A DNA stretch of 64,000 nucleotides, taken from contig JBAYHC010000001.1 in the NCBI GenBank assembly GCA_041666325.1, forward strand, positions 59,338 to 123,337, in the 5' to 3' direction. Below are positions 14,141 to 55,814 of the stretch, piece by piece. The stretch is from Patescibacteria group bacterium. GTDB lineage: Bacteria; Patescibacteriota; UBA1384; XYA2-FULL-43-10; 1-14-0-10-43-13. How positions within the stretch are numbered: the stretch's first letter is position 1; the number at the start of each line of letters is the position of its first letter. A program made the position numbers and the translations under genes. The notes below the pieces were generated by a model, which made no database searches, was not told where the DNA came from, and saw only the letters and a program-made list of their open reading frames with translations.

Positions 14141-15730
14141 ATGATTCTGTCAAAAAAGAAACAACCATTCGTTTTGATAGTTCTCGATGGTTGGGGCATC
14201 GCTCCAGCATGGGGTGGTAATGCAATAGCACAGGCAGACACCCGTAATTTTGATCGTGCCTGGAATAGTTATCCTTCCACCATATTGCTTGCGTCAGGCG
14301 ATGCTGTCGGGCTGCCAACGAATTCGCCTGGCAACTCTGAGGCTGGCCATCTTAATCTTGGCGCCGGAAGAATTATCCACCAAGACCAAACTTTAATCGA
14401 CGAACAAATCGACAAGGGCAATTTTCAAAATAGCCCGGAAATTTTGGGTGCTATCTCGCATGCCCAAAAACACAATTCGTCGTTACACTTGGTTGGTCTT
14501 TTGTCAAAGACAGGAACACACAGCCATATCAAGCACTTATATGAACTACTCACTCTAATCCATACCAAAGGTTTCTCCCGTGTCTATATTCACCTTTTCT
14601 CTGATGGGAGGGACTCTGAACCAATGTCCGGCATGGAGATGGCCATGGAAGTTGAGAAGAAGATTAAGGAAATCGGGGTTGGTACAATAGCTTCTCTTTC
14701 TGGTCGGTTTTATGCTATGGACAGAGATAATCGTTGGGGGCGCATTGCAAGGGCTTACAATTTACTAACCAAGGGTGAGGGCCAGGTATTCGATTCAATT
14801 ATTTCTGCTTTTCGGGAGTCTTACGGCCGTGGTGTCACCGATGAGTTTGTTGAGCCGTGCCTCATCGCGAACAAGGAGCAGCAGAGATCAACGATCGGCG
14901 ATAATGATAGTATAATTATTTTTAATTTCAGAAGTGATAGAGTCCGGGAAATCACCAGAGCATTTCTGGAGGAAAAACTGCCTGAGTTCTCCGATCGACT
15001 CAAACTTTCCAATCTCTATATTGCTACATTCGTTGTTTACGACGACCACCTACTGTCCCACCAGGTATTCAAGCCCGAAAAGATTGATAATCCTATCGCA
15101 AAAGTCTGGTCTGATCAGAGTTTGCGCCAGTTTCATATCGCGGAGACGGAGAAGTATCCGCATGCAACTTACTTTATCAATGGAGGCGTAGAAAAGCCTT
15201 TCCCTGGTGAAGATCGATTGATGATACCATCTCCTCGAAACTTCCGGACTTACGATTACGTCCCTAAGATGAGCGCCGAGAAACTTAGTGCTATGTTGGT
15301 ACATGTTATCAAAAGCCGTTCCCACGATTTTATTATTGCCAATTTTGCAAATGCCGATATGGTTGGGCATACTGGCAATCTTCAGGCCACCGTGCAGGCC
15401 GTTGAGTTCGTTGACCGTTGCCTTGGAGATATCTTTGTCGAAACAGTTAAGGCAAATGGGGCCGTATTCATCGTCGGCGATCACGGAAACGCTGAGCAAA
15501 TGGTCAATCCAGTTACCGGCGAAGCAGATACAGAGCACACGACAAATCCCGTTCCGTTCGTGGTTGTCAGCGACATAGAGAAGATTAAAAATGCCAAGCT
15601 CTTAACAAACGGTGTGCTTGCCTCAGTTGCACCCACGATACTGGATCTAGCGTCGATCAAAGCCCCGGAGAGCATGGTTAACCCATCATTAGTTATCAGA
15701 GAGATTATAAAAAATGAACCCATCACCTAA
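14141..15730 (+). CDS. gpmI: 2,3-bisphosphoglycerate-independent phosphoglycerate mutase
   Basis: 529 aa; metal/catalytic motifs intact: LIVLDGWG, NSEAGHLNLGAG (catalytic Ser), SDGRDS, ADMVGHTGN, GDHGNAE. Confidence 0.9.
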   Translation: MILSKKKQPFVLIVLDGWGIAPAWGGNAIAQADTRNFDRAWNSYPSTILLASGDAVGLPTNSPGNSEAGHLNLGAGRIIHQDQTLIDEQIDKGNFQNSPEILGAISHAQKHNSSLHLVGLLSKTGTHSHIKHLYELLTLIHTKGFSRVYIHLFSDGRDSEPMSGMEMAMEVEKKIKEIGVGTIASLSGRFYAMDRDNRWGRIARAYNLLTKGEGQVFDSIISAFRESYGRGVTDEFVEPCLIANKEQQRSTIGDNDSIIIFNFRSDRVREITRAFLEEKLPEFSDRLKLSNLYIATFVVYDDHLLSHQVFKPEKIDNPIAKVWSDQSLRQFHIAETEKYPHATYFINGGVEKPFPGEDRLMIPSPRNFRTYDYVPKMSAEKLSAMLVHVIKSRSHDFIIANFANADMVGHTGNLQATVQAVEFVDRCLGDIFVETVKANGAVFIVGDHGNAEQMVNPVTGEADTEHTTNPVPFVVVSDIEKIKNAKLLTNGVLASVAPTILDLASIKAPESMVNPSLVIREIIKNEPIT

Positions 15731-17309
15731 AAACCAGCTGGCGCTATTATTAATAGAGGGCTTTGGCCTATCAACTTCCTCTATCGGAAATGCAATTTGG
15801 GCGGCAAATCCAAAAGCTTTTTTTGACCTGTGGAGAAGGTATCCTCACTTCGCGCTTCAAACACGGTCGGCCAAGGACAAAAAAACAAGTTCTTCTCACA
15901 CTTCTGAATCAAATTTTTCTACCCTGGCCAGTGGCACTATCACAGAAACAAATCAGGAATACATCAATCGCGTAATAAAAGATGGTTCAATTGATAAATC
16001 TGGTCACTTGGCCAAAAAGCTGGACCAGAATTCCGTGCACATGGCATCAGTTCATCTTGTCGGATCAATCTCAAAGGACGACTCACTAGGCTGCATCCGC
16101 CACCTGGAAGCAATTATCGACGAAATATCCAATAAGAATGTTCATAATGTATATATTCATTTAATTATTGACGAGACAATCGATACAAAATTTGATTTGC
16201 TTGATCTCGTTGAGAAAGTTGAGAAGCTGGCTGCCCGCTCTGCCAACATTCATATCGCTACTATCGGCGGGGCTGATTTTTTCCGAGAAACTGTCTCTGC
16301 CAAAATTGACAAACTGTCGACAGGGTTTAAATCCATCTACCGTGGGACAAATAATAGTGCCCTCTCGCTCTCTCAAGCGATATCACTGTATTTAAAATCG
16401 AATGAGAGACCTTCTGAGATGCAGCCAGTATCAATCTTGTCTAACGGCATGCTAAGCGGACGAATCGGCGACTTCGACTTAATTGTTTTCTTTAACCACA
16501 ATCTGGTTGGCCTAGAGAGATTGATGTTCTCGTTCGTTACAGACACAGGCATAAACAATCAGACAAGCCTGTCTCGATCTATCTCGGTTCTTTCTCTAAT
16601 TAGTCCAACGCATGGCAACGAGCGTATTATTTCAATCATAGACCGAAGCTATGAGACTAATCTTTTCTCAACGATCAGCTCTGCTGGCCTGTCTCAGATT
16701 GTGGCCTCTGACAGCAGCCGCATGCAACTTCTCCAGAGCTACTTTCCTTCCAACAAATCAGGAATAGAGGAAATGTACATTCCTGCCCCGCTTGCCTTTA
16801 ACCAATATCTATCCAAGTATCAACGTATTACAAACAAGGTTGCCGAAGGTGCTTTTTCTGCCCTCTCAAGAAAATCATGCGATTTTGCACTTTTGCATAT
16901 CCCCTGCCTTGATATAGTAGCTGAGTCCGGAAGCCTTAACGATGCTGTTGCGGCGGTAAAATACGTGGATAGGTTAATTGATCTATTCGTCAAATCTGCG
17001 TCCTCAATGGGCATAAGAGTGATTATCTCCGCAAGCATCGGCCGAGCAGAAAAGATGACGCGAACCGCAAACCAGAGAGCTTGTGTTGCAACCTCAAACC
17101 CAGTTCCATTTATCTATGTTCCGGACGAACAGGGCACAACCAAAAGAACGAAATTCCACCCATCGCACGAGATTATTACCGAACTGCTTCACCCTAAGCA
17201 TCACATTGCCGATATTGCTCCTACAATATTGAATATTCTTGGTCTCGAGACACCATCATATATGACAGGCAAGGCACTAACCGAATCTTTTGCCCGCGAT
17301 ATTGATTAA
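15714..17309 (+). CDS. iPGM-like paralog lacking catalytic/metal-binding residues (putative pseudoenzyme)
   Basis: 531 aa, collinear similarity to gpmI (LLLIEGFG, VYIHLIIDETID, VKYVDRLI) but SEAGH, DGRD, HTG and DHGN motifs replaced; start overlaps gpmI stop by 17 nt. Confidence 0.6.
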   Translation: MNPSPKNQLALLLIEGFGLSTSSIGNAIWAANPKAFFDLWRRYPHFALQTRSAKDKKTSSSHTSESNFSTLASGTITETNQEYINRVIKDGSIDKSGHLAKKLDQNSVHMASVHLVGSISKDDSLGCIRHLEAIIDEISNKNVHNVYIHLIIDETIDTKFDLLDLVEKVEKLAARSANIHIATIGGADFFRETVSAKIDKLSTGFKSIYRGTNNSALSLSQAISLYLKSNERPSEMQPVSILSNGMLSGRIGDFDLIVFFNHNLVGLERLMFSFVTDTGINNQTSLSRSISVLSLISPTHGNERIISIIDRSYETNLFSTISSAGLSQIVASDSSRMQLLQSYFPSNKSGIEEMYIPAPLAFNQYLSKYQRITNKVAEGAFSALSRKSCDFALLHIPCLDIVAESGSLNDAVAAVKYVDRLIDLFVKSASSMGIRVIISASIGRAEKMTRTANQRACVATSNPVPFIYVPDEQGTTKRTKFHPSHEIITELLHPKHHIADIAPTILNILGLETPSYMTGKALTESFARDID

Positions 17310-17358: not shown

Positions 17359-17410
17359 GGGCCCATAGCTTAGCTAGCAGAGCGCCCCGATAGTTATCGG
17401 CTAGGTCAGG
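17359..17410 (+). other. tRNA 5'-half-like fragment (acceptor + D-arm, GGGCCCATAGCTTAGCTAGCAGAGCG) fused to direct-repeat copy 1
   Basis: First 10 nt identical to tRNA-Ala at 17681; no matching T-arm/acceptor 3' strand downstream; repeat AGAGCGccCCGATAGTTATCGGCTAGGTCAGG at 17379..17410. Confidence 0.5.
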
Positions 17411-17414
17411 GAAA

Positions 17415-17675
17415 ATGAAACCCGAGATTTATATATTATCACTTGCAAATGGTCAATATTACATTGGCTCTACCCATGACGTCGAGCGCCGTCTAATCGA
17501 ACACAATTCCGGCAAGACCAAGAGTATCAGACATAAACTCCCCGCGAGACTCGTCTTTCGACAAGAAATTGCCACATTACCAGAAGCCCGAAAGACTGAA
17601 TATAAGTTAAAACAAAAGAAAAGCAAAAGGATCATCGAAACAATAATTACGAGCGGCAAAATTGAAATAAAATAG
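17415..17675 (+). CDS. GIY-YIG nuclease family protein (YhbQ/UPF0213-like)
   Basis: 86 aa; GIY-YIG core IYILSLANGQYYIGSTHDVERRLIEHNSG closely parallels E. coli YhbQ [28 protein letters not shown]. Confidence 0.75.
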   Translation: MKPEIYILSLANGQYYIGSTHDVERRLIEHNSGKTKSIRHKLPARLVFRQEIATLPEARKTEYKLKQKKSKRIIETIITSGKIEIK

Positions 17676-17680
17676 CTGGC

Positions 17681-17757
17681 GGGCCCATAGTTCAGTTGGC
17701 TAGAACGCATCGCTGGCAGCGATGAGGTCAGCGGTTCGAATCCGCTTGGGTCCACCA
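17681..17757 (+). tRNA. tRNA-Ala (anticodon GGC)
   Basis: GGGCCCATAGTTCAGTTGGCTAGAACGCATCGCTGGCAGCGATGAGGTCAGCGGTTCGAATCCGCTTGGGTCCACCA; G3:U70 AlaRS identity pair, anticodon loop CTGGCAG, encoded CCA. Confidence 0.85.
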
Positions 17758-17771
17758 ACTATTTTACTTCA

Positions 17772-17828
17772 AGAGCGAGCCGATAGTTATCGGCTAGGTC
17801 AGGAGTTCAAGTCTCCTCAGATCCGCCA
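17772..17828 (+). other. tRNA 3'-half-like fragment (anticodon-like hairpin, variable loop, T-arm AGGAG-TTCAAGT-CTCCT, acceptor 3' strand CAGATCC, G, CCA) fused to direct-repeat copy 2
   Basis: Repeat AGAGCGagCCGATAGTTATCGGCTAGGTCAGG at 17772..17803; perfect T-arm and CCA but no complementary 5' acceptor strand (GGATCTG) nearby. Confidence 0.5.
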
Positions 17829-17878
17829 CAATTATTAATGACCCATGTGAGTCATTTTTATTATGATATAGTTTTGAT

Positions 17879-19659: not shown

Positions 19660-19743
19660 TTGACTTCGTATTTTTGATCTGTTAAATTAAGCTGCTCTAA
19701 GCAGTTAGGATCTCGCGCCAACTTTTTGGAGGGAGCAATTTTG
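19660..19743 (+). promoter_or_regulatory. conserved promoter (TTGACT-N16-TTAAAT) plus conserved structured leader, copy 1 (upstream of NYN gene)
   Basis: cgcTTGACT...TTAAAT then conserved AGTTAGGATCTCGCGCCAACTTTTTGGAGGGAGCAATTTTG; 3 copies in window. Confidence 0.6.
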
Positions 19744-19858
19744 ATAAGTGCACTCTGTTCTCTGCTGAGCCAGGAAGTGGTACTATAAGAATAACACTTA
19801 GAGATCTTCGTACTCACACTTTAAATGATTAACGATCTCGCAAACCGCAAGGAGGTAA

Positions 19859-20611
19859 ATGGCATTTAGTTTTTTTATGAAAAGGAAGCCAGCAGAAGCA
19901 AAGTCGAAGCCGGCCAAAATACAGAATAAGCCTGCCCCAATCGAGGTAGCCCCGGCGCATTCACAATCCGTATCCCCGCCCGCAATTGGCAAGGCTGTCT
20001 ATGCATTCATAGATGCTTCGAATCTTTTTTGGGGCGGACAAGAAAGTCTGGGATTTCGGATTAACTATTCGTTGCTCATCGAGGGCATGCGCAAAAAGTA
20101 CAATGTCACGAAGGCATTTTATTATGGCGGAGTTCGTATCTTTGATTTTGAGTACTCTATTCTAGACAACAAACCCCTGGATTTGGCCGAGCTGATGGAT
20201 CACTTGCTTGCACTGAAGCAAAAATCAGAACCAGCAGAAGCAGAACTTGTCGAGAAATCGATCAAGAAAATTCATTTTTATCAATTGCTCGAGGGCTATG
20301 GTTACACCATGAGAATTAAGCCAGCCAAGGTTTTCTACGATGAGGACGACGAGAAACAGGAACGACCAATCCTCAAGGCTAACTGTGATGTTGATATGAC
20401 GTTCGATATGATGCGCTATATGTCTCAATACTCCGGCATTGTCGCCATGACTGGAGACGGTGATTTTGCTGCGGCACTCAATTACCTTAAGCACCAAAAC
20501 CGTCAAGTTACAGTCATCTCTCGATGGGATCGTACAGCAAAGGAAATTCGCCAGATTGGCGACGAGAGCTTTATCGACCTATCTCACTTCTACCGCCAAA
20601 TCCGTCACTAA
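19859..20611 (+). CDS. NYN/LabA-like (PIN-fold) domain protein
   Basis: 250 aa; NYN signatures AFIDASNLFWG and MTGDGDFAAAL; strong RBS aaggagg. Confidence 0.65.
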   Translation: MAFSFFMKRKPAEAKSKPAKIQNKPAPIEVAPAHSQSVSPPAIGKAVYAFIDASNLFWGGQESLGFRINYSLLIEGMRKKYNVTKAFYYGGVRIFDFEYSILDNKPLDLAELMDHLLALKQKSEPAEAELVEKSIKKIHFYQLLEGYGYTMRIKPAKVFYDEDDEKQERPILKANCDVDMTFDMMRYMSQYSGIVAMTGDGDFAAALNYLKHQNRQVTVISRWDRTAKEIRQIGDESFIDLSHFYRQIRH

Positions 20612-20649
20612 AGTATTTACAGCAGGTGCAGAACATCGCTTGACTATAC

Positions 20650-20734
20650 ATTTTTTTGATGGTAAATTTAGGTGCCATACGGCAGTTAAGACCTCGCGCC
20701 AGCTTTTGGGAAGAGGCAGTTTTGTGAAAATAGT
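20650..20734 (+). promoter_or_regulatory. conserved promoter (TTGACT-N17-TAAATT) plus leader motif, copy 2 (orphan; no downstream plus-strand CDS before terminator)
   Basis: Same -35/-10 and conserved AGTTAAGACCTCGCGCCAGCTTTTGGGAAGAGGCAGTTTTG; followed ~45 nt later by intrinsic terminator at 20778. Confidence 0.55.
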
Positions 20735-20777
20735 ACTACCAACTGATCCGACCAATCAATCAAAAACCTATTGCATC

Positions 20778-20808
20778 AAAAAAGAGCCTGCAAGCAGGCT
20801 CTTTTTTG
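20778..20808. terminator. bidirectional rho-independent terminator (GAGCCTGC..GCAGGCTC with A-run before and T-run after)
   Basis: Perfect inverted repeat flanked by AAAAAA / TTTTTT; serves minus-strand gene 20824..21195 and the plus-strand copy-2 transcript. Confidence 0.7.
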
Positions 20809-20823
20809 ATTGAGATATATTGA

Positions 20824-21195
20824 TTAGCCCTTAAATGGAGCTTTCAACGTTTCTTTGGCTTCCTCGAGACCCTTTTTGGCCGCATCGCCAATTGCCTCTA
20901 GCCCGGCCTCGCTGATATTGCCAATTGCTTGCTCTGCCTTAACCGTGACCTCACTGATGGCTTCCTCAGTTGTTTTACCGGACTCCTCTAGTGCCTTGAC
21001 TGCACCGACATAAACATCCTTAACACCAGAAGTAACATCTAGTACGCCCTCTTTGCCCAAGTCAATAACAGCACCAAAGACATCACCAACGTCCTCTGTT
21101 CCATCCTTAATCAATCCTGACACTGCACCAATCAAGCTTCCAGCCACTTCCCCAGTACCTTCAATGGTGGCTTTGAGTGTTTCCTTTAAGCCCAT
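20824..21195 (-). CDS. hypothetical low-complexity Ala/Gly/Glu/Lys-rich protein (amphipathic helical repeats)
   Basis: 123 aa ORF, repetitive ...GAVxxLxxxGxxxV... periodicity; terminator downstream. Confidence 0.45.
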   Translation of the reverse strand: MGLKETLKATIEGTGEVAGSLIGAVSGLIKDGTEDVGDVFGAVIDLGKEGVLDVTSGVKDVYVGAVKALEESGKTTEEAISEVTVKAEQAIGNISEAGLEAIGDAAKKGLEEAKETLKAPFKG

Positions 21196-21363
21196 CTCAC
21201 CTCCTAGATTAATAACTTCTTCAACTCTAACCTTAGCATCGCTGCGACTCGATGGTCAAGTTGCATTTTGCCCTCAACCCCCGACGTACTATGTTGGCGA
21301 GGAGTTATTTTGAGCAAATATCGCAAAAGCTGGACGAACAATATTGCCACCTCATCTGTACTC

Positions 21364-21451
21364 TCTTGACTCAAAATTTCCCAACTGTTAAATTTAGGCG
21401 CTCTCATAGTAGTTAAGACCTCGCGCCAACTTTTTGGAAGAGGCAATTTTG
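21364..21451 (+). promoter_or_regulatory. conserved promoter (TTGACT-N16-TTAAAT) plus leader motif, copy 3 (upstream of K+ channel gene)
   Basis: ctcTTGACT...TTAAAT then AGTTAAGACCTCGCGCCAACTTTTTGGAAGAGGCAATTTTG. Confidence 0.6.
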
Positions 21452-21520: not shown

Positions 21521-21928
21521 ATGAAACGAAAATCCAGCTCAGTTATATTTATAACATTGTTTTTATCCGCCGTTTTGATTGGCGTTGGCGCCTGGTTCTT
21601 CAGACTCTCAGAGGGGTGGAACTGGATTGACTCATTTTACTTCACCGTGATGACAGTCACAACTGTTGGATATGGCGATCTGGTACCAACCCACGACTTT
21701 GGCAAAATTCTAACCTCGATCTATGGTCTAGTCTCCATACCGGTAATGCTCTATGTTTTTAGCGTAATTGTTGGAAATAATGTTGATTCTCGTATTGGTC
21801 ATCTTGAGCGTAAAATGAGAGAAATAATCGCCCGCGAAGAAGAGATCGAGGAAATTATCGAGGACGGCGCTGTAAACATGAAGAAAAAAAGAGCAAGCTT
21901 CTTCAGGCGTTTGCTCAGATTAGAGTAG
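21521..21928 (+). CDS. two-TM potassium channel (ion transport 2 / KcsA-like pore)
   Basis: 135 aa; selectivity filter TVGYGD in FYFTVMTVTTVGYGDLVP flanked by two TM helices. Confidence 0.8.
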   Translation: MKRKSSSVIFITLFLSAVLIGVGAWFFRLSEGWNWIDSFYFTVMTVTTVGYGDLVPTHDFGKILTSIYGLVSIPVMLYVFSVIVGNNVDSRIGHLERKMREIIAREEEIEEIIEDGAVNMKKKRASFFRRLLRLE

Positions 21929-47956: not shown

Positions 47957-48367
47957 ATGGCATTGAGCATTGCGCACGCACTCGAGGAATTATTAAGTCA
48001 ACGCATTTTGGACTCCGAAGAAGTCGTGCCGACCAGACCGGTCCATTGTCTGAGCCGAGAGGTGAGACAATATTTGTTAGACGAATTTGGAAGTGAGGGA
48101 TCCGATCCCCTCTTCCCATTCACCTGTCGACCGGTTGTTGTTACTCGGCCGATAGCCGGCTGTCATCCAGAAAAGAACGGCGTGCTTCAACCGGGATGCT
48201 ACCGAACGATAGGTCTTGACGTTCACTCTGGGCTCTATATCCGAATTGCATACAGAAAGATCGATGGCCCTTTTAGTGATACAGTTATCTATGTCGCTTA
48301 TGGCGACAAAGTTATTGACTGGCGCTGCACCAGCAGCTTTCACTCTTTCCTTGCGCCCCGGTGTTAA
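47957..48367 (+). CDS. hypothetical protein (GC-rich island)
   Basis: 136 aa ORF with upstream TTGATA..TATTAT promoter-like sequence and terminator hairpin overlapping stop; ~52% GC. Confidence 0.4.
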   Translation: MALSIAHALEELLSQRILDSEEVVPTRPVHCLSREVRQYLLDEFGSEGSDPLFPFTCRPVVVTRPIAGCHPEKNGVLQPGCYRTIGLDVHSGLYIRIAYRKIDGPFSDTVIYVAYGDKVIDWRCTSSFHSFLAPRC

Positions 48368-48385
48368 CCCGGGGCGCTTCTTGTG
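48353..48385. terminator. bidirectional terminator-like hairpin GCGCCCCGG-tgttaac-CCGGGGCGC
   Basis: Perfect 9-bp GC stem between convergent ORFs 47957..48367 and 48394..48828. Confidence 0.55.
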
Positions 48386-48393
48386 TGATGAGA

Positions 48394-48828
48394 CTAGATG
48401 GCTTGTATCTCTGTCTCAATTTTATCGGCGATTCGCTTAAAAGTACCGTTCTTAGTTCTTTGCCACTCCTGGCGAACGCTGAAGGCAGCATCTTCGAGTG
48501 CATCGCGATATCTCTGCGGTTGACCGCCATCGCGGTAGATGGTTGCTATAACAATCTCCTGGCCAATGCGAGCCAGTTCACTCACGCTATACTCCATGCT
48601 GTCTGTCAAAGCCATCGCCATATCTTGATACTCACCCATGGATTGCCGCGTGATGTCATGGTCTTGTCCTGTCATTGCTTCAATCGCGCGCTGTCTGGTC
48701 AGAGACATCTCCGGTGTCTCCACATAACCTAGCTCTTGCGCAAGTTCGAAAAGACCGTCCTTGCAAGCTTCAATCTCGGCACCAACTGGTTTATATCCCT
48801 CCAAATCCGCGCTATTCATCTGTCTCAC
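48394..48828 (-). CDS. hypothetical protein (GC-rich island)
   Basis: 144 aa ORF, acidic, helical; no motif recognised. Confidence 0.4.
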   Translation of the reverse strand: MRQMNSADLEGYKPVGAEIEACKDGLFELAQELGYVETPEMSLTRQRAIEAMTGQDHDITRQSMGEYQDMAMALTDSMEYSVSELARIGQEIVIATIYRDGGQPQRYRDALEDAAFSVRQEWQRTKNGTFKRIADKIETEIQAI

Positions 48829-49267
48829 CTTTCTATATTCTTAGCAAACATTCTACAGCGGACGATTCAGTTTTTTTACTTCGATCTCAATCGACCTGGG
48901 AACAGGAGCACATGAACAATGCTTCTGGTGCTCTCTGTGCCAGATAACTCGCTCTTGTTCGCTCGGATTTTTTGGCATCTTGTTTGCCCTGTGCCACTCT
49001 GCATTAATTTTTCCCATCTCCCTCCTTCAGTTAATTGTAGAATATATCAAAATAGAACTAACTATTATCTGCATTTTACGCTGATTGATGTCTTCCGCAA
49101 AATAGCCACATCAGGGAAGTTAGCGCGAGATCTTAACTGCCTGTGGCAGTCAAAAATACCATTCTATACCAATGACGTCAATGGTAAGGACTATGCACGA
49201 TTGTGCAAACAAAAAAAGGGCGAAGACGCATAAGAACATCTTGCCCCAGAGGCACAAACCAAATCGA

Positions 49268-50086
49268 TCACGCCCTTCGGCGCTGTCCAATGTTAGCAAC
49301 TGCACCTTGTTCAACATCACTCTGGGCATCTTCAAGCGCACCAAGTTCCATCTTTGCTTCGGACAGCAGCTCCTGCGCTCTTGCCTGAGCACGATCAGCC
49401 CGAGCGATCACTTGCTGTGAGCGCTCATCCAAACCGCTTAGCTGTCGTAGGATGTCTGCCTTGGCAGCAATCATCTGCTCAATCCCCTGCCGAGCTTCAA
49501 TCGTCTCTCTAATCTCCCGATCCAAGGTTGCCCTTAAGACCGGAGACTCAGGCAAAACGTCCGTATCATGCACAGCCCGGCGTTCGCGCAACAGACGCTC
49601 AGTTCTAGTTAGCTCCGCGATTTGTTCCTGCAGTCTTGCCAGTGTGTCGTGGCCGGTCTTATCGGCAACACGTTTGAAATGACTAGTCAAAACACTCCGA
49701 CTCCACTGCAGGCGCCACTTACCAAACAAGCCAAAACCGTTGGTCAGAGACAAAACACCTTCCATCAATCCAACCGACAAAAATCCTGGGATATAGCCGA
49801 TCGTTCCCAAAACCCAGAAAACCATTACAAACACGCCTTCTTTCTCACACTGACCCTTCGCTTCTGGATAGAAATTCAGGGTCATTTCCCAAAACTTTTT
49901 CTTGCCCTCACGAAGGCGAAAGCACAGATAAAAGCTCGCAACTAGCAGATAAAAGTAGCTAGCATAAGGCTCATATCTATGCAAGCCAAAGGCTGACACA
50001 AGTGCAATCGTCGAAAGAATACCGGTAATCATCACAACGCAACCAGGTCCCTCGTCGACCCTGCAGGTCAATTCATCCTGAGACAT
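49268..50086 (-). CDS. hypothetical membrane protein with coiled-coil C-terminal domain (GC-rich island)
   Basis: ~272 aa from MSQDEL; 4 TM helices then long coiled-coil (LARLQEQIAELTRTERLLRERR...). Confidence 0.4.
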   Translation of the reverse strand: MSQDELTCRVDEGPGCVVMITGILSTIALVSAFGLHRYEPYASYFYLLVASFYLCFRLREGKKKFWEMTLNFYPEAKGQCEKEGVFVMVFWVLGTIGYIPGFLSVGLMEGVLSLTNGFGLFGKWRLQWSRSVLTSHFKRVADKTGHDTLARLQEQIAELTRTERLLRERRAVHDTDVLPESPVLRATLDREIRETIEARQGIEQMIAAKADILRQLSGLDERSQQVIARADRAQARAQELLSEAKMELGALEDAQSDVEQGAVANIGQRRRA

Positions 50087-50326
50087 TCTTCTCCCCCCCT
50101 TGCCAACTCCTGGCTTAGCCAGTCCTACGATAGTACAATAACACGGGTAATTTGTCAATTAGGTAGAGAGAATCCTAGTCACATCAAAGTATAATTTTAG
50201 ACGAAAATACTGCCCTGCGAAGTTGAAGCAATCTCTTGAATGCTGTTAGTGCCTAAGTTCAATGCGCGAAAATTCAAAAGCGAAGATCTGACAATCTCTG
50301 CTCGAATTCCTGCCTATTGCAAGTAT

Positions 50327-55677: not shown

Positions 55678-55814
55678 ATTTTGTTCTTCTTTGAGAAATT
55701 TAACATAATTAACGCGAGAAGTCAACACTTTTAGCTATATTTTCTTGCAAAAGAAGGCGATAGTGCAAGCAGACAAAGCCAGAGGGGCAAGAAAAAGCGT
55801 ACCCCGGCTGATTC

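What the first reader, a model, noticed from the sequence alone, without database searches (positions are those of the whole stretch)
19660..21451. Three-copy family of a conserved promoter plus structured ~55-nt leader
Three intergenic sites (19660..19743, 20650..20734, 21364..21451) share (c)gcTTGACT - 16/17 nt - TTAAAT/TAAATT. A conserved transcribed segment follows: AGTTAAGACCTCGCGCCAACTTTTTGGAAGAGGCAATTTTG. The first hairpin differs in sequence between copies yet keeps base-pairing (GCTGCT-cta-AGCAGC in copy 1, TGCC-atac-GGCA in copy 2), which is the covariation expected of a functional RNA structure. It is followed by conserved CCTC...GAGG and CCAA-cttt-TTGG stems. Copies 1 and 3 sit ~115 and ~70 nt upstream of a NYN-domain RNase-like gene and a K+ channel gene. 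This looks like a shared cis-regulatory leader (riboswitch, RNA thermometer or protein-binding site) or a mobile promoter cassette.
Basis: seen in the sequence. Interest (0 to 1): 0.55.

Follow-up and report, generated by a model that had tools for sequence, protein, structure and literature searches.

The report
Repeated promoter-plus-leader cassette in a CPR bacterium
A small uncultured (Patescibacteria-type) bacterium carries at least four copies of one ~85-base unit, a standard strong promoter fused to a ~50-base conserved leader; the copies sit in front of unrelated genes, selection has preserved the leader, but nothing supports a riboswitch-like fold, so it is a new example of a duplicated promoter cassette whose leader function is unknown.

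Summary
The repeat is real. Three + strand copies lie at 19660-19743, 20640-20724 and 21366-21451. A fourth, diverged copy lies on the minus strand at 49181-49098. Each copy has TTGACN, a 17-nt spacer, TGn and TAAATT (TATTTT in copy 4), then about 55 nt ending in an invariant TTTTG. The infA gene has the same promoter hexamers without the leader.

A sister species (NYN protein 84% identical) keeps the element upstream of its NYN gene. There the leader is 88% identical, while four-fold sites (46%) and the rest of the UTR (52%, equal to shuffled sequence) are saturated. So the leader is under purifying selection.

RNA structure is not supported. Folding z-scores are ordinary, the CCTC/GAGG and CCAA/TTGG stems show no compensatory changes and are broken in copy 4, and Rfam has no match. 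Hairpin 1 has one compensatory pair, but its 5' arm starts right after the -10 box.

Best reading: a lineage-restricted duplicated promoter-leader cassette (a "putative mobile promoter"). Its leader is constrained at the sequence level. It may act as a 5'-proximal ribosome-docking or stabiliser module, or as a factor-binding site. Copy 2 has no gene and should give a ~135-nt terminated transcript.

The parts
19660..19743 (+). Copy 1. Promoter TTGACT-17-TAAATT (19660-19688, with TGT before the -10). Hairpin-1 palindrome 19689-19707. Conserved 41-nt core ending in TTTTG at 19743. Likely TSS near the invariant G at 19694.
19859..20611 (+). NYN-domain (LabA-like) protein gene, 250 aa, 115 nt downstream of copy 1.
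   Evidence: Pfam PF01936, E=2.7e-19. The orthologue in L025 keeps the element upstream.
20640..20724 (+). Copy 2, with the same promoter and leader. It starts 29 nt after the NYN stop codon. No credible gene follows it.
20775..20810 (.). Strong bidirectional intrinsic terminator (A-run, GC stem, T-run). It should end the copy-2 transcript after about 135-140 nt. It also serves the NYN mRNA and the convergent 123-aa gene.
   Evidence: Sequence. Fold (16-bp stem including the A/U runs). Terminator-like weak Rfam hits.
21366..21451 (+). Copy 3, with the same promoter and leader. Weak similarity to copy 2 continues about 40 nt further.
21521..21928 (+). Small two-transmembrane K+ channel gene (135 aa), 69 nt downstream of copy 3.
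   Evidence: Pfam PF07885, E=6.9e-20
49098..49181 (-). Copy 4, diverged. Promoter TTGACG-17-TATTTT. Perfect 8-bp hairpin 1 (TGACTGCC-aca-GGCAGTTA). Core 73-78% identical to the other copies. The CCAA/TTGG stem and the purine tract are lost; TTTTG is kept.
   Evidence: nhmmer E=9.6e-8 before inclusion in the profile. Sequence. CM 68.1 bits. Identities.
48394..49017 (-). Two hypothetical genes downstream of copy 4: 54 aa at 48853-49017 and 144 aa at 48394-48828. Neither has a Pfam, PADLOC or PHROG match.
   Evidence: (both are called as genes in the NCBI and ENA records)
55697..55725 (-). Comparator, not a family member. The infA promoter has identical hexamers (TTGACT-17-TGTTAAATT) but no leader. 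This shows the promoter half matches this organism's ordinary strong-promoter consensus.

Best explanation
This is a lineage-restricted promoter-plus-leader cassette, spread by duplication to at least four sites in the genome. It has been kept by selection since before the split from a sister species. Shown: the first 29 bp match the organism's normal sigma-70-type extended -10 promoter (TTGACN, 17-nt spacer, TGn, TAnnnT). Shown: the next ~55 nt end in an invariant TTTTG and are conserved as primary sequence at the level of first and second codon positions, while the flanking UTR is saturated. Inferred: transcription starts at the invariant G about 6 nt after the -10. All four transcripts would then begin with the same ~50-nt leader. 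Inferred, the mechanism I commit to: the leader acts in cis on the RNA as a shared 5'-proximal module. In 4 of 5 copies a purine tract (GGAGG, GGAGGAGG or GAAGAGG) is as complementary to the anti-SD as the genes' real ribosome-binding sites. An invariant TTG follows 5-8 nt later and opens only a start-stop or a short non-conserved mini-ORF. An upstream CCUC can partly mask the tract. A ribosome docked there, far from the real start codon, would protect or co-tune these long-leader mRNAs in the manner of STAB-SD or the hbs mRNA. Copy 2 has no gene and a strong terminator about 50 nt after the leader. It should produce a ~135-nt leader-only RNA.
For: Repeat family. Promoter: both hexamers are identical to the infA promoter, and TGn extended -10 boxes occur in 8 of 17 TTGAC-N16-18-TAnnnT sites in the window. 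Every copy that precedes a gene points at that gene. Selection: between the NYN orthologues, amino-acid identity is 84%, third codon positions 52%, and four-fold sites 46%. The leader after the -10 is 88% identical (50/57). The rest of the UTR is 52% and the upstream flank 52%, against 55 +/- 3% for shuffled sequence. Conservation starts at the -35 and stops exactly at TTTTG. Unrelated downstream genes: NYN, Ion_trans_2 and two hypotheticals. SD-like tract: duplex energies with the anti-SD core are -9.8, -11.7, -5.8 and -5.8 kcal/mol, against -5.6 to -12.6 for the real RBSs. The TTG-led ORFs are 1, 1, 11, 11 and 15 codons long. Copy 2 is absent from the 59 nt that follow the NYN stop codon in the sister species, where the contig ends; in the window it starts 29 nt after that stop codon. 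It shares extra similarity with copy 3, which is consistent with duplication after the species split. The precedents for a non-initiating SD or an initiating ribosome protecting an mRNA are Agaisse & Lereclus 1996 and Daou-Chabo et al. 2009, taken from the reference list of PMC7509114, and the abstract of PMC5737220.
Against: No TSS or expression data exist, so the promoter and the leader-as-RNA are inferences. Copy 4 has lost the purine tract (-1.5 kcal/mol) yet keeps the 5' half of the core and TTTTG, so the SD-like tract cannot be the only constrained feature. A stabiliser would not obviously need 41 nt of near-invariant sequence, for example CTCGCGC in all five copies. Such conservation fits a specific binding site better. 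Only about 83 kb of a genome of at least 687 kb could be examined, and three of the four copies lie within 1.8 kb, so the genome-wide family size and regulon are unknown. Only one orthologous comparison is available.
Confidence: 0.45

Rival explanations
1. The leader is an operator or binding site for a trans-acting factor that co-regulates these genes. One version is a DNA-binding repressor acting as a roadblock just downstream of the promoter, for example the divergently encoded 66-aa XRE-type HTH next to copy 1. The other version is an RNA-binding protein or RNase that recognises the nascent leader, for example the NYN protein encoded behind copy 1.
For: The conservation is of primary sequence with no compensatory changes, which is what a binding site predicts. 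The core contains an imperfect palindrome, CCTC-N3-CCAA-N4-TTGG-N2-GAGG. CTCGCGC and GCAGTTA are kept even in the diverged copy 4. An HTH_26 gene lies divergently upstream of copy 1. Copy 1 precedes a predicted RNase gene, and this arrangement is conserved in the sister species. RNase III autoregulates by cleaving its own transcript (PMC7509114). That RNase E does so through its 5' leader is my own recollection, not checked here.
Against: A contiguous 41-nt block is long for one bacterial operator. Copy 2's substitutions break the palindrome's symmetry, though an RNA stem can still form in a shifted register. The hairpin-1 palindrome has spacer lengths of 3 to 5 nt, which does not suit a fixed protein dimer on duplex DNA. 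No experiment or co-occurrence statistic links either protein to the site. NYN orthologues at 62% identity or lower lack the element.
Confidence: 0.3
2. The leader is a structured cis-regulatory RNA that senses a ligand or temperature (riboswitch or RNA thermometer).
For: Hairpins can be drawn in most copies. There is one compensatory T-A to C-G change in hairpin 1, plus three one-sided changes that keep pairing. The 5' UTRs are long (about 120-170 nt) for a compact genome. A CCUC...GAGG pairing masks an SD-like tract.
Against: Fold z-scores are -0.83, -0.39 and +0.49. RNAalifold gives -5.7 kcal/mol with a covariation term of +0.96 and 0 compensatory pairs. Copy 4 lacks the inner stem. There is no Rfam hit at the gathering score or at E<=10. 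The masked SD-like tract is not the genes' RBS, which lies 70-115 nt downstream. The gene set (NYN, K+ channel, hypotheticals, and no gene) does not suggest a common ligand. Most of hairpin 1's 5' arm lies between the -10 box and the expected TSS.
Confidence: 0.1
3. Copy 2, and possibly the family as a whole, is a small-RNA gene family. The conserved ~50 nt would be the 5' domain of an sRNA, and the copies before genes would be co-opted or read-through versions.
For: Copy 2 has a promoter, the leader, about 50 further nt and a strong terminator, with no credible ORF. The only candidate is a 29-codon GTG frame that runs through the terminator stem. It lies in the 3' region of the NYN transcription unit, like promoter-bearing 3'-UTR sRNAs.
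Against: The other three copies and the orthologue have no terminator before the downstream gene. Copy 2 is absent from the 59 nt that follow the NYN stop codon in the sister species, where the contig ends. There is no Rfam match beyond generic terminator similarity.
Confidence: 0.1
4. The copies are neutral leftovers of recent segmental duplication, or the end of an IS or MITE, with no function of their own.
For: Three copies lie within 1.8 kb. Copies 2 and 3 share some extra flanking similarity.
Against: The orthologous copy is 84-88% identical while neutral sites are saturated. The flanking genes are unrelated. There are no terminal inverted repeats, no target-site duplications and no transposase nearby. 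There is no match in the phage, plasmid or viral collections.
Confidence: 0.05

Closest known systems
Putative mobile promoters (PMPs; Matus-Garcia, Nijveen & van Passel 2012, PMC3488235)
   Same: Homologous 50-100-nt upstream regions with about 80% identity or more lie in front of non-homologous genes within one genome. They are not explained by IS elements or known riboswitches. The family is small (PMP families range from 2 to 93 members).
   Different: The conserved block lies further from the start codons (-70 to -200) than the -50 to -150 window used to define PMPs. One copy has no downstream gene. One copy falls below 80% identity. Here there is also direct evidence of purifying selection on the transcribed part from an orthologue.
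STAB-SD of cryIIIA and ribosome-protected hbs mRNA in Bacillus (Agaisse & Lereclus 1996; Daou-Chabo et al. 2009; Braun et al. 2017, PMC5737220)
   Same: An SD-like purine tract sits in a long 5' UTR, far upstream of the real start codon. In 4 of 5 copies it is as complementary to the anti-SD as genuine RBSs. It lies near the 5' end, where a bound ribosome could block 5'-end-dependent decay.
   Different: No stability data exist. Here the tract is followed by an invariant TTG (a start-stop or mini-ORF) and is embedded in a much longer invariant sequence. The tract is missing in copy 4. The RNase complement of this organism was not examined.
Autoregulatory 5' leaders of ribonuclease genes (RNase III acting on its own operon, PMC7509114; the rne 5' UTR, cited from my own recollection)
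   Same: A conserved leader precedes a predicted RNase (NYN) gene and is kept in the sister species.
   Different: The same leader also precedes non-RNase genes. There is no structural conservation comparable to the rne5 hairpins. No evidence shows the NYN protein binds or cuts the leader. More distant NYN orthologues lack it.
Promoter-bearing 3'-UTR-derived or orphan sRNAs (applies to copy 2 only; the kind is cited from my own recollection)
   Same: There is an internal promoter just after a stop codon, a short transcript and a shared terminator.
   Different: Its 5' half is the same leader used by mRNAs elsewhere. No target or expression evidence exists.

Membership tests
Sigma-70-type extended -10 promoter | -35 TTGACA-like hexamer, 16-18 nt spacer, TGn, and a -10 TAnnnT hexamer, oriented toward a gene | tested here: met
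   Copies 1-3 have TTGACT-17-TG(T/G)TAAATT and copy 4 has TTGACG-17-TGGTATTTT. The hexamers are identical to those before infA. Transcription itself was not observed.
Putative mobile promoter (PMC3488235) | Upstream regions align over more than 50 nt at 80% identity or more | tested here: met
   The best 50-nt windows give 0.82 for c1-c3, 0.80 for c1-c2 and 0.80 for c2-c3. Copy 4 reaches only 0.66-0.76 and fails.
Putative mobile promoter (PMC3488235) | Downstream and upstream coding sequences are not homologous | tested here: met
   The downstream genes are NYN (PF01936), Ion_trans_2 (PF07885) and hypotheticals without a family. The upstream neighbours also differ.
Putative mobile promoter (PMC3488235) | Conserved block lies within the -50 to -150 window upstream of the translation start of a transcription unit | tested here: inconclusive
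   Copy 3's block spans -155 to -70 and copy 4's -164 to -81. Copy 1's spans -199 to -116, so it is only partly inside. Copy 2 has no downstream CDS.
Any Rfam 15 family (riboswitches, leaders, sRNAs) | Covariance-model score at or above the family's gathering score | tested here: not met
   Only two tRNAs pass in the window. At E<=10, the sole match overlapping a copy is a 16-bit SmY snRNA hit over copy 3 (gathering score 39, E=1.9); the other matches are terminator-like hits near 20775-20810.
Riboswitch or structured cis-regulatory RNA in general | A conserved secondary structure supported by compensatory base changes | tested here: not met
   There are 0 compensatory pairs in the two core stems, and pairing equals shuffles. 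The RNAalifold covariation term is positive. Hairpin 1 has one compensatory pair among 8 pairs x 5 sequences, with 4 broken cells. With only 5 sequences the test has little power.
RNA thermometer (ROSE, fourU type) | The SD or start codon of the regulated gene is sequestered in the temperature-labile hairpin | tested here: not met
   The genes' SD sequences lie 70-115 nt downstream of the element, outside the conserved block.
STAB-SD-like 5' stabiliser | An SD-complementary sequence in the 5' UTR that is not used to start the main ORF | tested here: met
   This holds in 4 of 5 copies, with duplex energies of -5.8 to -11.7 kcal/mol, similar to the real RBSs. Copy 4 lacks the tract.
STAB-SD-like 5' stabiliser | The element increases mRNA half-life through 30S binding | not testable with these tools
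   This needs decay assays or toeprinting.
IS element end or MITE | Terminal inverted repeats, target-site duplication, an associated transposase or many dispersed copies | tested here: not met
   The ends are TTGACT... and ...ATTTTG, which are not inverted repeats. No flanking direct repeats or transposase were seen. There is no match in the phage, plasmid or viral collections. Four copies were found in about 83 kb.
Intrinsic terminator or attenuator within the leader | A GC-rich stem immediately followed by a U-run | tested here: not met
   The terminator scan reports none on the + strand in any copy; its one call inside a copy is a minus-strand stem over the hairpin-1 palindrome of copy 1 (19704-19692). 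The TTTT lies 3 nt after a weak, interrupted stem. Copy 4 keeps TTTTG but has no stem.

The most novel reading that the evidence does not exclude
The invariant leader sequence is the recognition site of a dedicated trans-acting factor. The most attractive candidate is the NYN-domain nuclease encoded directly behind copy 1. The cassette would then define a small autoregulated post-transcriptional regulon in a CPR bacterium. The gene-less copy 2 would produce a leader-only decoy RNA that titrates the factor. This would give a first physiological RNA target for a bacterial LabA/NYN protein.
Probability: 0.1. Interest if true: 0.65.

Novelty: new member of a known kind. Interest (0 to 1): 0.35.

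Why it matters
Almost nothing is known experimentally about transcription and mRNA control in Candidate Phyla Radiation bacteria. This cassette offers a ready-made, apparently strong native promoter. Its ~50-nt leader is demonstrably under selection and is reused before unrelated accessory genes. That makes it a concrete case of regulatory rewiring by promoter duplication in a reduced genome. If the leader proves to be a binding site, for ribosomes or for a protein such as the adjacent NYN nuclease, it would define a small co-regulated gene set and a testable function for poorly understood genes. As it stands, it is a modest, lineage-specific regulatory repeat and not a new class of RNA.

Tried and rejected
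1. Pattern scans of genome contigs, metagenome contigs and viral contigs with CTCGCGCCNNCTTTTNGGNNGNNGCA, plus a second 5'-core pattern in viral contigs. They returned only chance or unrelated hits, mostly one conserved Rhodocyclales/Sulfuritalea locus, whose flanks do not resemble the element. They did not return the window's own genome either, so these negatives say little about close relatives.

2. Rfam at the gathering score and at E<=10 found nothing relevant.

3. A covariance model (R1) with filters off, and nhmmer --max, were run on the window, on 19 kb of extra flank from the same genome, and on all fetched relatives. No copies appeared beyond the four plus L025.

4. A chimeric protein query (K+ channel + 54 aa + 144 aa) meant to find orthologous loci for copies 3 and 4 gave no close homologues, so no further orthologous copies could be fetched.

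5. An exact look-up of IF-1, meant to reach sister species through an identical protein, returned only the same strain.

6. NYN orthologues at 60-62% identity (L027, L039, L040) were checked. The element is absent upstream.

7. Coding explanations were rejected. The plus frames hit stop codons or lack start codons. The minus-strand ORFs across the core translate differently in copy 1 than in copies 2 and 3. A 67-aa gene call over copy 3's promoter in one assembly looks spurious.

8. A defence-island or prophage context was checked. PADLOC gave only the generic NYN model and PHROGs only K+ channel relatives.

9. A leader attenuator and a long-range fold common to all copies were looked for. No consistent structure was found.
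Full report
**What is in the sequence**

A degenerate version of the 32-nt core matched three times in the window and never in 100 dinucleotide-preserving shuffles. A profile HMM scored the three copies at E values of 1e-25 to 1e-27.
- Copy 1 spans 19660-19743.
- Copy 2 spans 20640-20724.
- Copy 3 spans 21366-21451.

All three read TTGACT, a 17-nt spacer, TG(T/G)TAAATT, then a short palindrome, then AGTTA(A/G)GA(C/T)CTCGCGCCA(A/G)CTTTT(T/G)GG, then a purine tract, then GCA(A/G)TTTTG.

It lies on the minus strand at 49181-49098. It is diverged:
- Its promoter is TTGACG-17-TGGTATTTT.
- Its core is 73-78% identical to the other copies.
- It sits about 80 nt upstream of a 54-aa gene and a 144-aa gene that have no known family.

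No further copy was found in the window, or in 19 kb of additional flank from the same genome.

**Whose genome it is**

The window is identical to ENA ERZ27249449 contig k141_115123 (687 kb) and to NCBI MAG GCA_041659665.1. The closest named homologues of its proteins come from Patescibacteria/CPR bacteria.

**The promoter half**

The two hexamers and the TGn extension are identical to those in front of infA at 55725-55697. That site has no leader. TGn-extended -10 boxes occur in 8 of the 17 TTGAC-N16-18-TAnnnT sites in the window. So the first 29 bp match this organism's ordinary strong-promoter consensus. Every copy that precedes a gene points toward it. Transcription itself is inferred, not shown.

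**Is the leader functional?**

The closest NYN homologue is 84% identical and comes from a Logan contig, L025. It carries the element at the same position upstream of its NYN gene. It shares copy-1-specific characters (GCTGCT hairpin, TTAGGA, GGAGG), so the two copies are orthologous.

| Region compared between the orthologues | Identity |
|---|---|
| Third codon positions of the NYN gene | 52% |
| Four-fold degenerate sites | 46% |
| Rest of the 5' UTR | 52% |
| 124 nt upstream of the -35 | 52% |
| Shuffled UTR sequence with the same aligner | 55 +/- 3% |
| Whole element, -35 to TTTTG | 84% |
| Leader after the -10 box | 88% (50/57) |
| First and second codon positions | 87-91% |

Conservation begins at the -35 and stops exactly at TTTTG. 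This is strong evidence of purifying selection on the leader, and it excludes a neutral duplication relic.

The element is narrowly distributed. NYN orthologues at 60-62% identity lack it. Copy 2 is absent from the 59 nt that follow the NYN stop codon in L025, where that contig ends. In the window it starts 29 nt after the stop codon. Copies 2 and 3 share about 40 nt of extra weak similarity. Together these points are consistent with at least one duplication after the species split.

**Is it a structured RNA?**

The evidence does not support that.
- Single-sequence folds are unremarkable, with z-scores of -0.83, -0.39 and +0.49.
- RNAalifold on five sequences gives -5.7 kcal/mol, a positive covariation term and no compensatory pair.
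There are no double-sided changes. Copy 4 has lost the inner stem.
- Longer folds of the full UTRs share no common architecture.
- Rfam 15 has no match at the gathering score. At E<=10 the only match overlapping a copy is a 16-bit SmY snRNA hit over copy 3 (gathering score 39), which is noise.

Hairpin 1 is somewhat better supported. In a hand-registered alignment, 36 of 40 cells pair. One pair changes T-A to C-G in copies 2 and 4, three changes are one-sided and compatible, and the loop length varies from 3 to 5 nt. The variable loop argues for a nucleic-acid hairpin over a fixed dimer site on duplex DNA.

Two things weaken it. It has four disrupted cells, and its 5' arm begins immediately after the -10 hexamer. 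If transcription starts at the invariant G 6 nt downstream, only the top 3 bp are in the RNA. With five sequences, one of them an orthologue, the power is low either way.

**What the leader most likely does**

The constraint is on primary sequence. Two features stand out.

First, in four of the five copies a purine tract (GGAGGGAG, GGAGGAGG or GGAAGAGG) pairs with the anti-SD core as well as the genuine ribosome-binding sites of these genes do. The tract energies are -5.8 to -11.7 kcal/mol, against -5.6 to -12.6 kcal/mol for the real sites. An invariant TTG follows 5-8 nt later. It opens only a start-stop (copies 2 and 3) or a non-conserved ORF of 11-15 codons.

Second, the real start codons lie a further 70-115 nt downstream, so total 5' UTRs are about 120-170 nt.

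This resembles 5'-proximal ribosome-docking stabilisers such as STAB-SD and the hbs mRNA in Bacillus. For these I rely on Agaisse & Lereclus 1996 and Daou-Chabo et al. 2009, as listed in PMC7509114, and on the abstract of PMC5737220. I commit to this as the single most likely mechanism, with modest confidence.

The main difficulty is that copy 4 has lost the tract. It still keeps GCAGTTAAGATCTCGCGC and TTTTG. An invariant 41-nt block also looks more like a specific binding site. The chief rival is therefore a trans-acting factor site. On DNA, one candidate is the divergent 66-aa HTH_26 gene next to copy 1. On RNA, the candidate is the NYN nuclease behind copy 1, by analogy with RNase genes that autoregulate through their own transcripts (PMC7509114).

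**Copy 2**

Copy 2 starts 29 nt after the NYN stop codon. About 50 nt after its leader comes a strong bidirectional terminator at 20775-20810. The only ORF is a 29-codon GTG frame that runs through the terminator stem. Copy 2 should therefore give a leader-only RNA of about 135 nt. This could be an orphan by-product of duplication, an sRNA, or a decoy if the leader binds a factor.

**Comparison with known systems**

The family fits "putative mobile promoters", with reservations. These are defined as alignments of more than 50 nt at 80% identity or more, upstream of non-homologous genes (PMC3488235).
- Copies 1 to 3 meet the identity criterion (0.80-0.82). Copy 4 does not.
- The flanking genes are unrelated.
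- The block lies further upstream than the defining window, and one copy has no gene.

It is not an IS or MITE end. It has no terminal inverted repeats and no transposase, and it has no match in the phage, plasmid or viral collections. It is not in a recognisable defence or prophage context.

**Limits**

- Only about 83 kb of a genome of at least 687 kb was available.
- The public-collection scans did not return the source genome itself, so they cannot bound the family's distribution.
- Only one orthologous copy could be retrieved.
- There are no expression data.

**Verdict**

It is a promoter-plus-leader cassette under selection, but there is no evidence for a riboswitch-like structure. It is a new, lineage-specific member of a known kind of element, of moderate-to-low general interest unless the leader turns out to be a specific factor-binding site.

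Noticed in passing
window 17359-17410 and 17772-17830 (repeats at 17379-17410 and 17772-17803): A 32-nt direct repeat (94% identical) brackets a GIY-YIG endonuclease gene (17415-17675) plus tRNA-Ala(GGC) (17681-17757). The left repeat is preceded by a tRNA-like 5' end (GGGCCCATAGCTTAGC...). The right repeat is followed by a T-arm and acceptor-like 3' end (GGAGTTCAAGTCTCC...CCGCCA). It looks like a tRNA-like gene split or duplicated by insertion of a GIY-YIG/tRNA module. ARAGORN and Rfam call only the tRNA-Ala.
   Followed up: partly
window 59409-60191 (-), and L035 7515-14522: A heliorhodopsin gene (PF18761) and several unrelated genes (PaaX_M, a 444-aa hypothetical, an AP-endonuclease-like gene) lie between ribosomal protein S5 and secY. 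This interrupts the usually contiguous spc ribosomal operon of this CPR genome.
   Followed up: no
window 14141-15730 and 15714-17309 (+): Two tandem genes of 529 and 531 aa overlap by 17 nt. Both match the cofactor-independent phosphoglycerate mutase domains (PF01676 and PF06415). Tandem paralogues are unusual in such a small genome.
   Followed up: no
window 48000-50200: The segment carrying copy 4 has higher GC (0.488 against about 0.44). Its ORFs (54, 144, 296 and 136 aa) have no Pfam, PADLOC or PHROG match and no close homologues. It may be a recently acquired island.
   Followed up: partly
L026 1100-2400 (relative with 74% identical NYN): The 23S rRNA gene downstream of NYN in this relative is interrupted by several AT-rich insertions. 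Each is bracketed by short hairpins of the type CCGTGC(N4-5)GCACGG.
   Followed up: no
L025 1-16 and 1131-1144: The 1.1-kb sister-species contig begins and ends with an inverted repeat (ACGTCATTGCGAGAG ... CTCCTCGCAATGAC). This suggests a dispersed palindromic repeat that breaks the assembly on both sides of the NYN locus.
   Followed up: no
L002-L005, L007-L010, L015, L016, L021 (Sulfuritalea/Rhodocyclales contigs): The pattern scan happened to retrieve a highly conserved leader in Rhodocyclales: TTGACC..., about 35 nt, then CTCGCGCCCTCTTTTTGGTGGGGGCAgcaATGGCCAAACCTCAACT. It is conserved across 11 contigs immediately upstream of an ORF starting MAKPQL. It is unrelated to the element studied but is itself a conserved 5' region.
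   Followed up: no
window 21230-21259 (-): A likely promoter of the conserved 123-aa Gly/Val/Glu-rich protein gene (TTGACC-18-TGCTAAGGT) lies 35 nt upstream of its ATG. That protein family is widespread in this CPR group (60-72% identity, about 70 clusters) and has no Pfam domain.
   Followed up: partly
L034 9160-9792 (just left of the window): An ECF-type sigma factor gene (Sigma70_r2 and r4_2) lies immediately outside the window. In one of the two assemblies of this region (L033, not L034) it is followed by a called 139-aa ORF. It was not linked to the cassette, whose promoter is of the housekeeping type.
   Followed up: no
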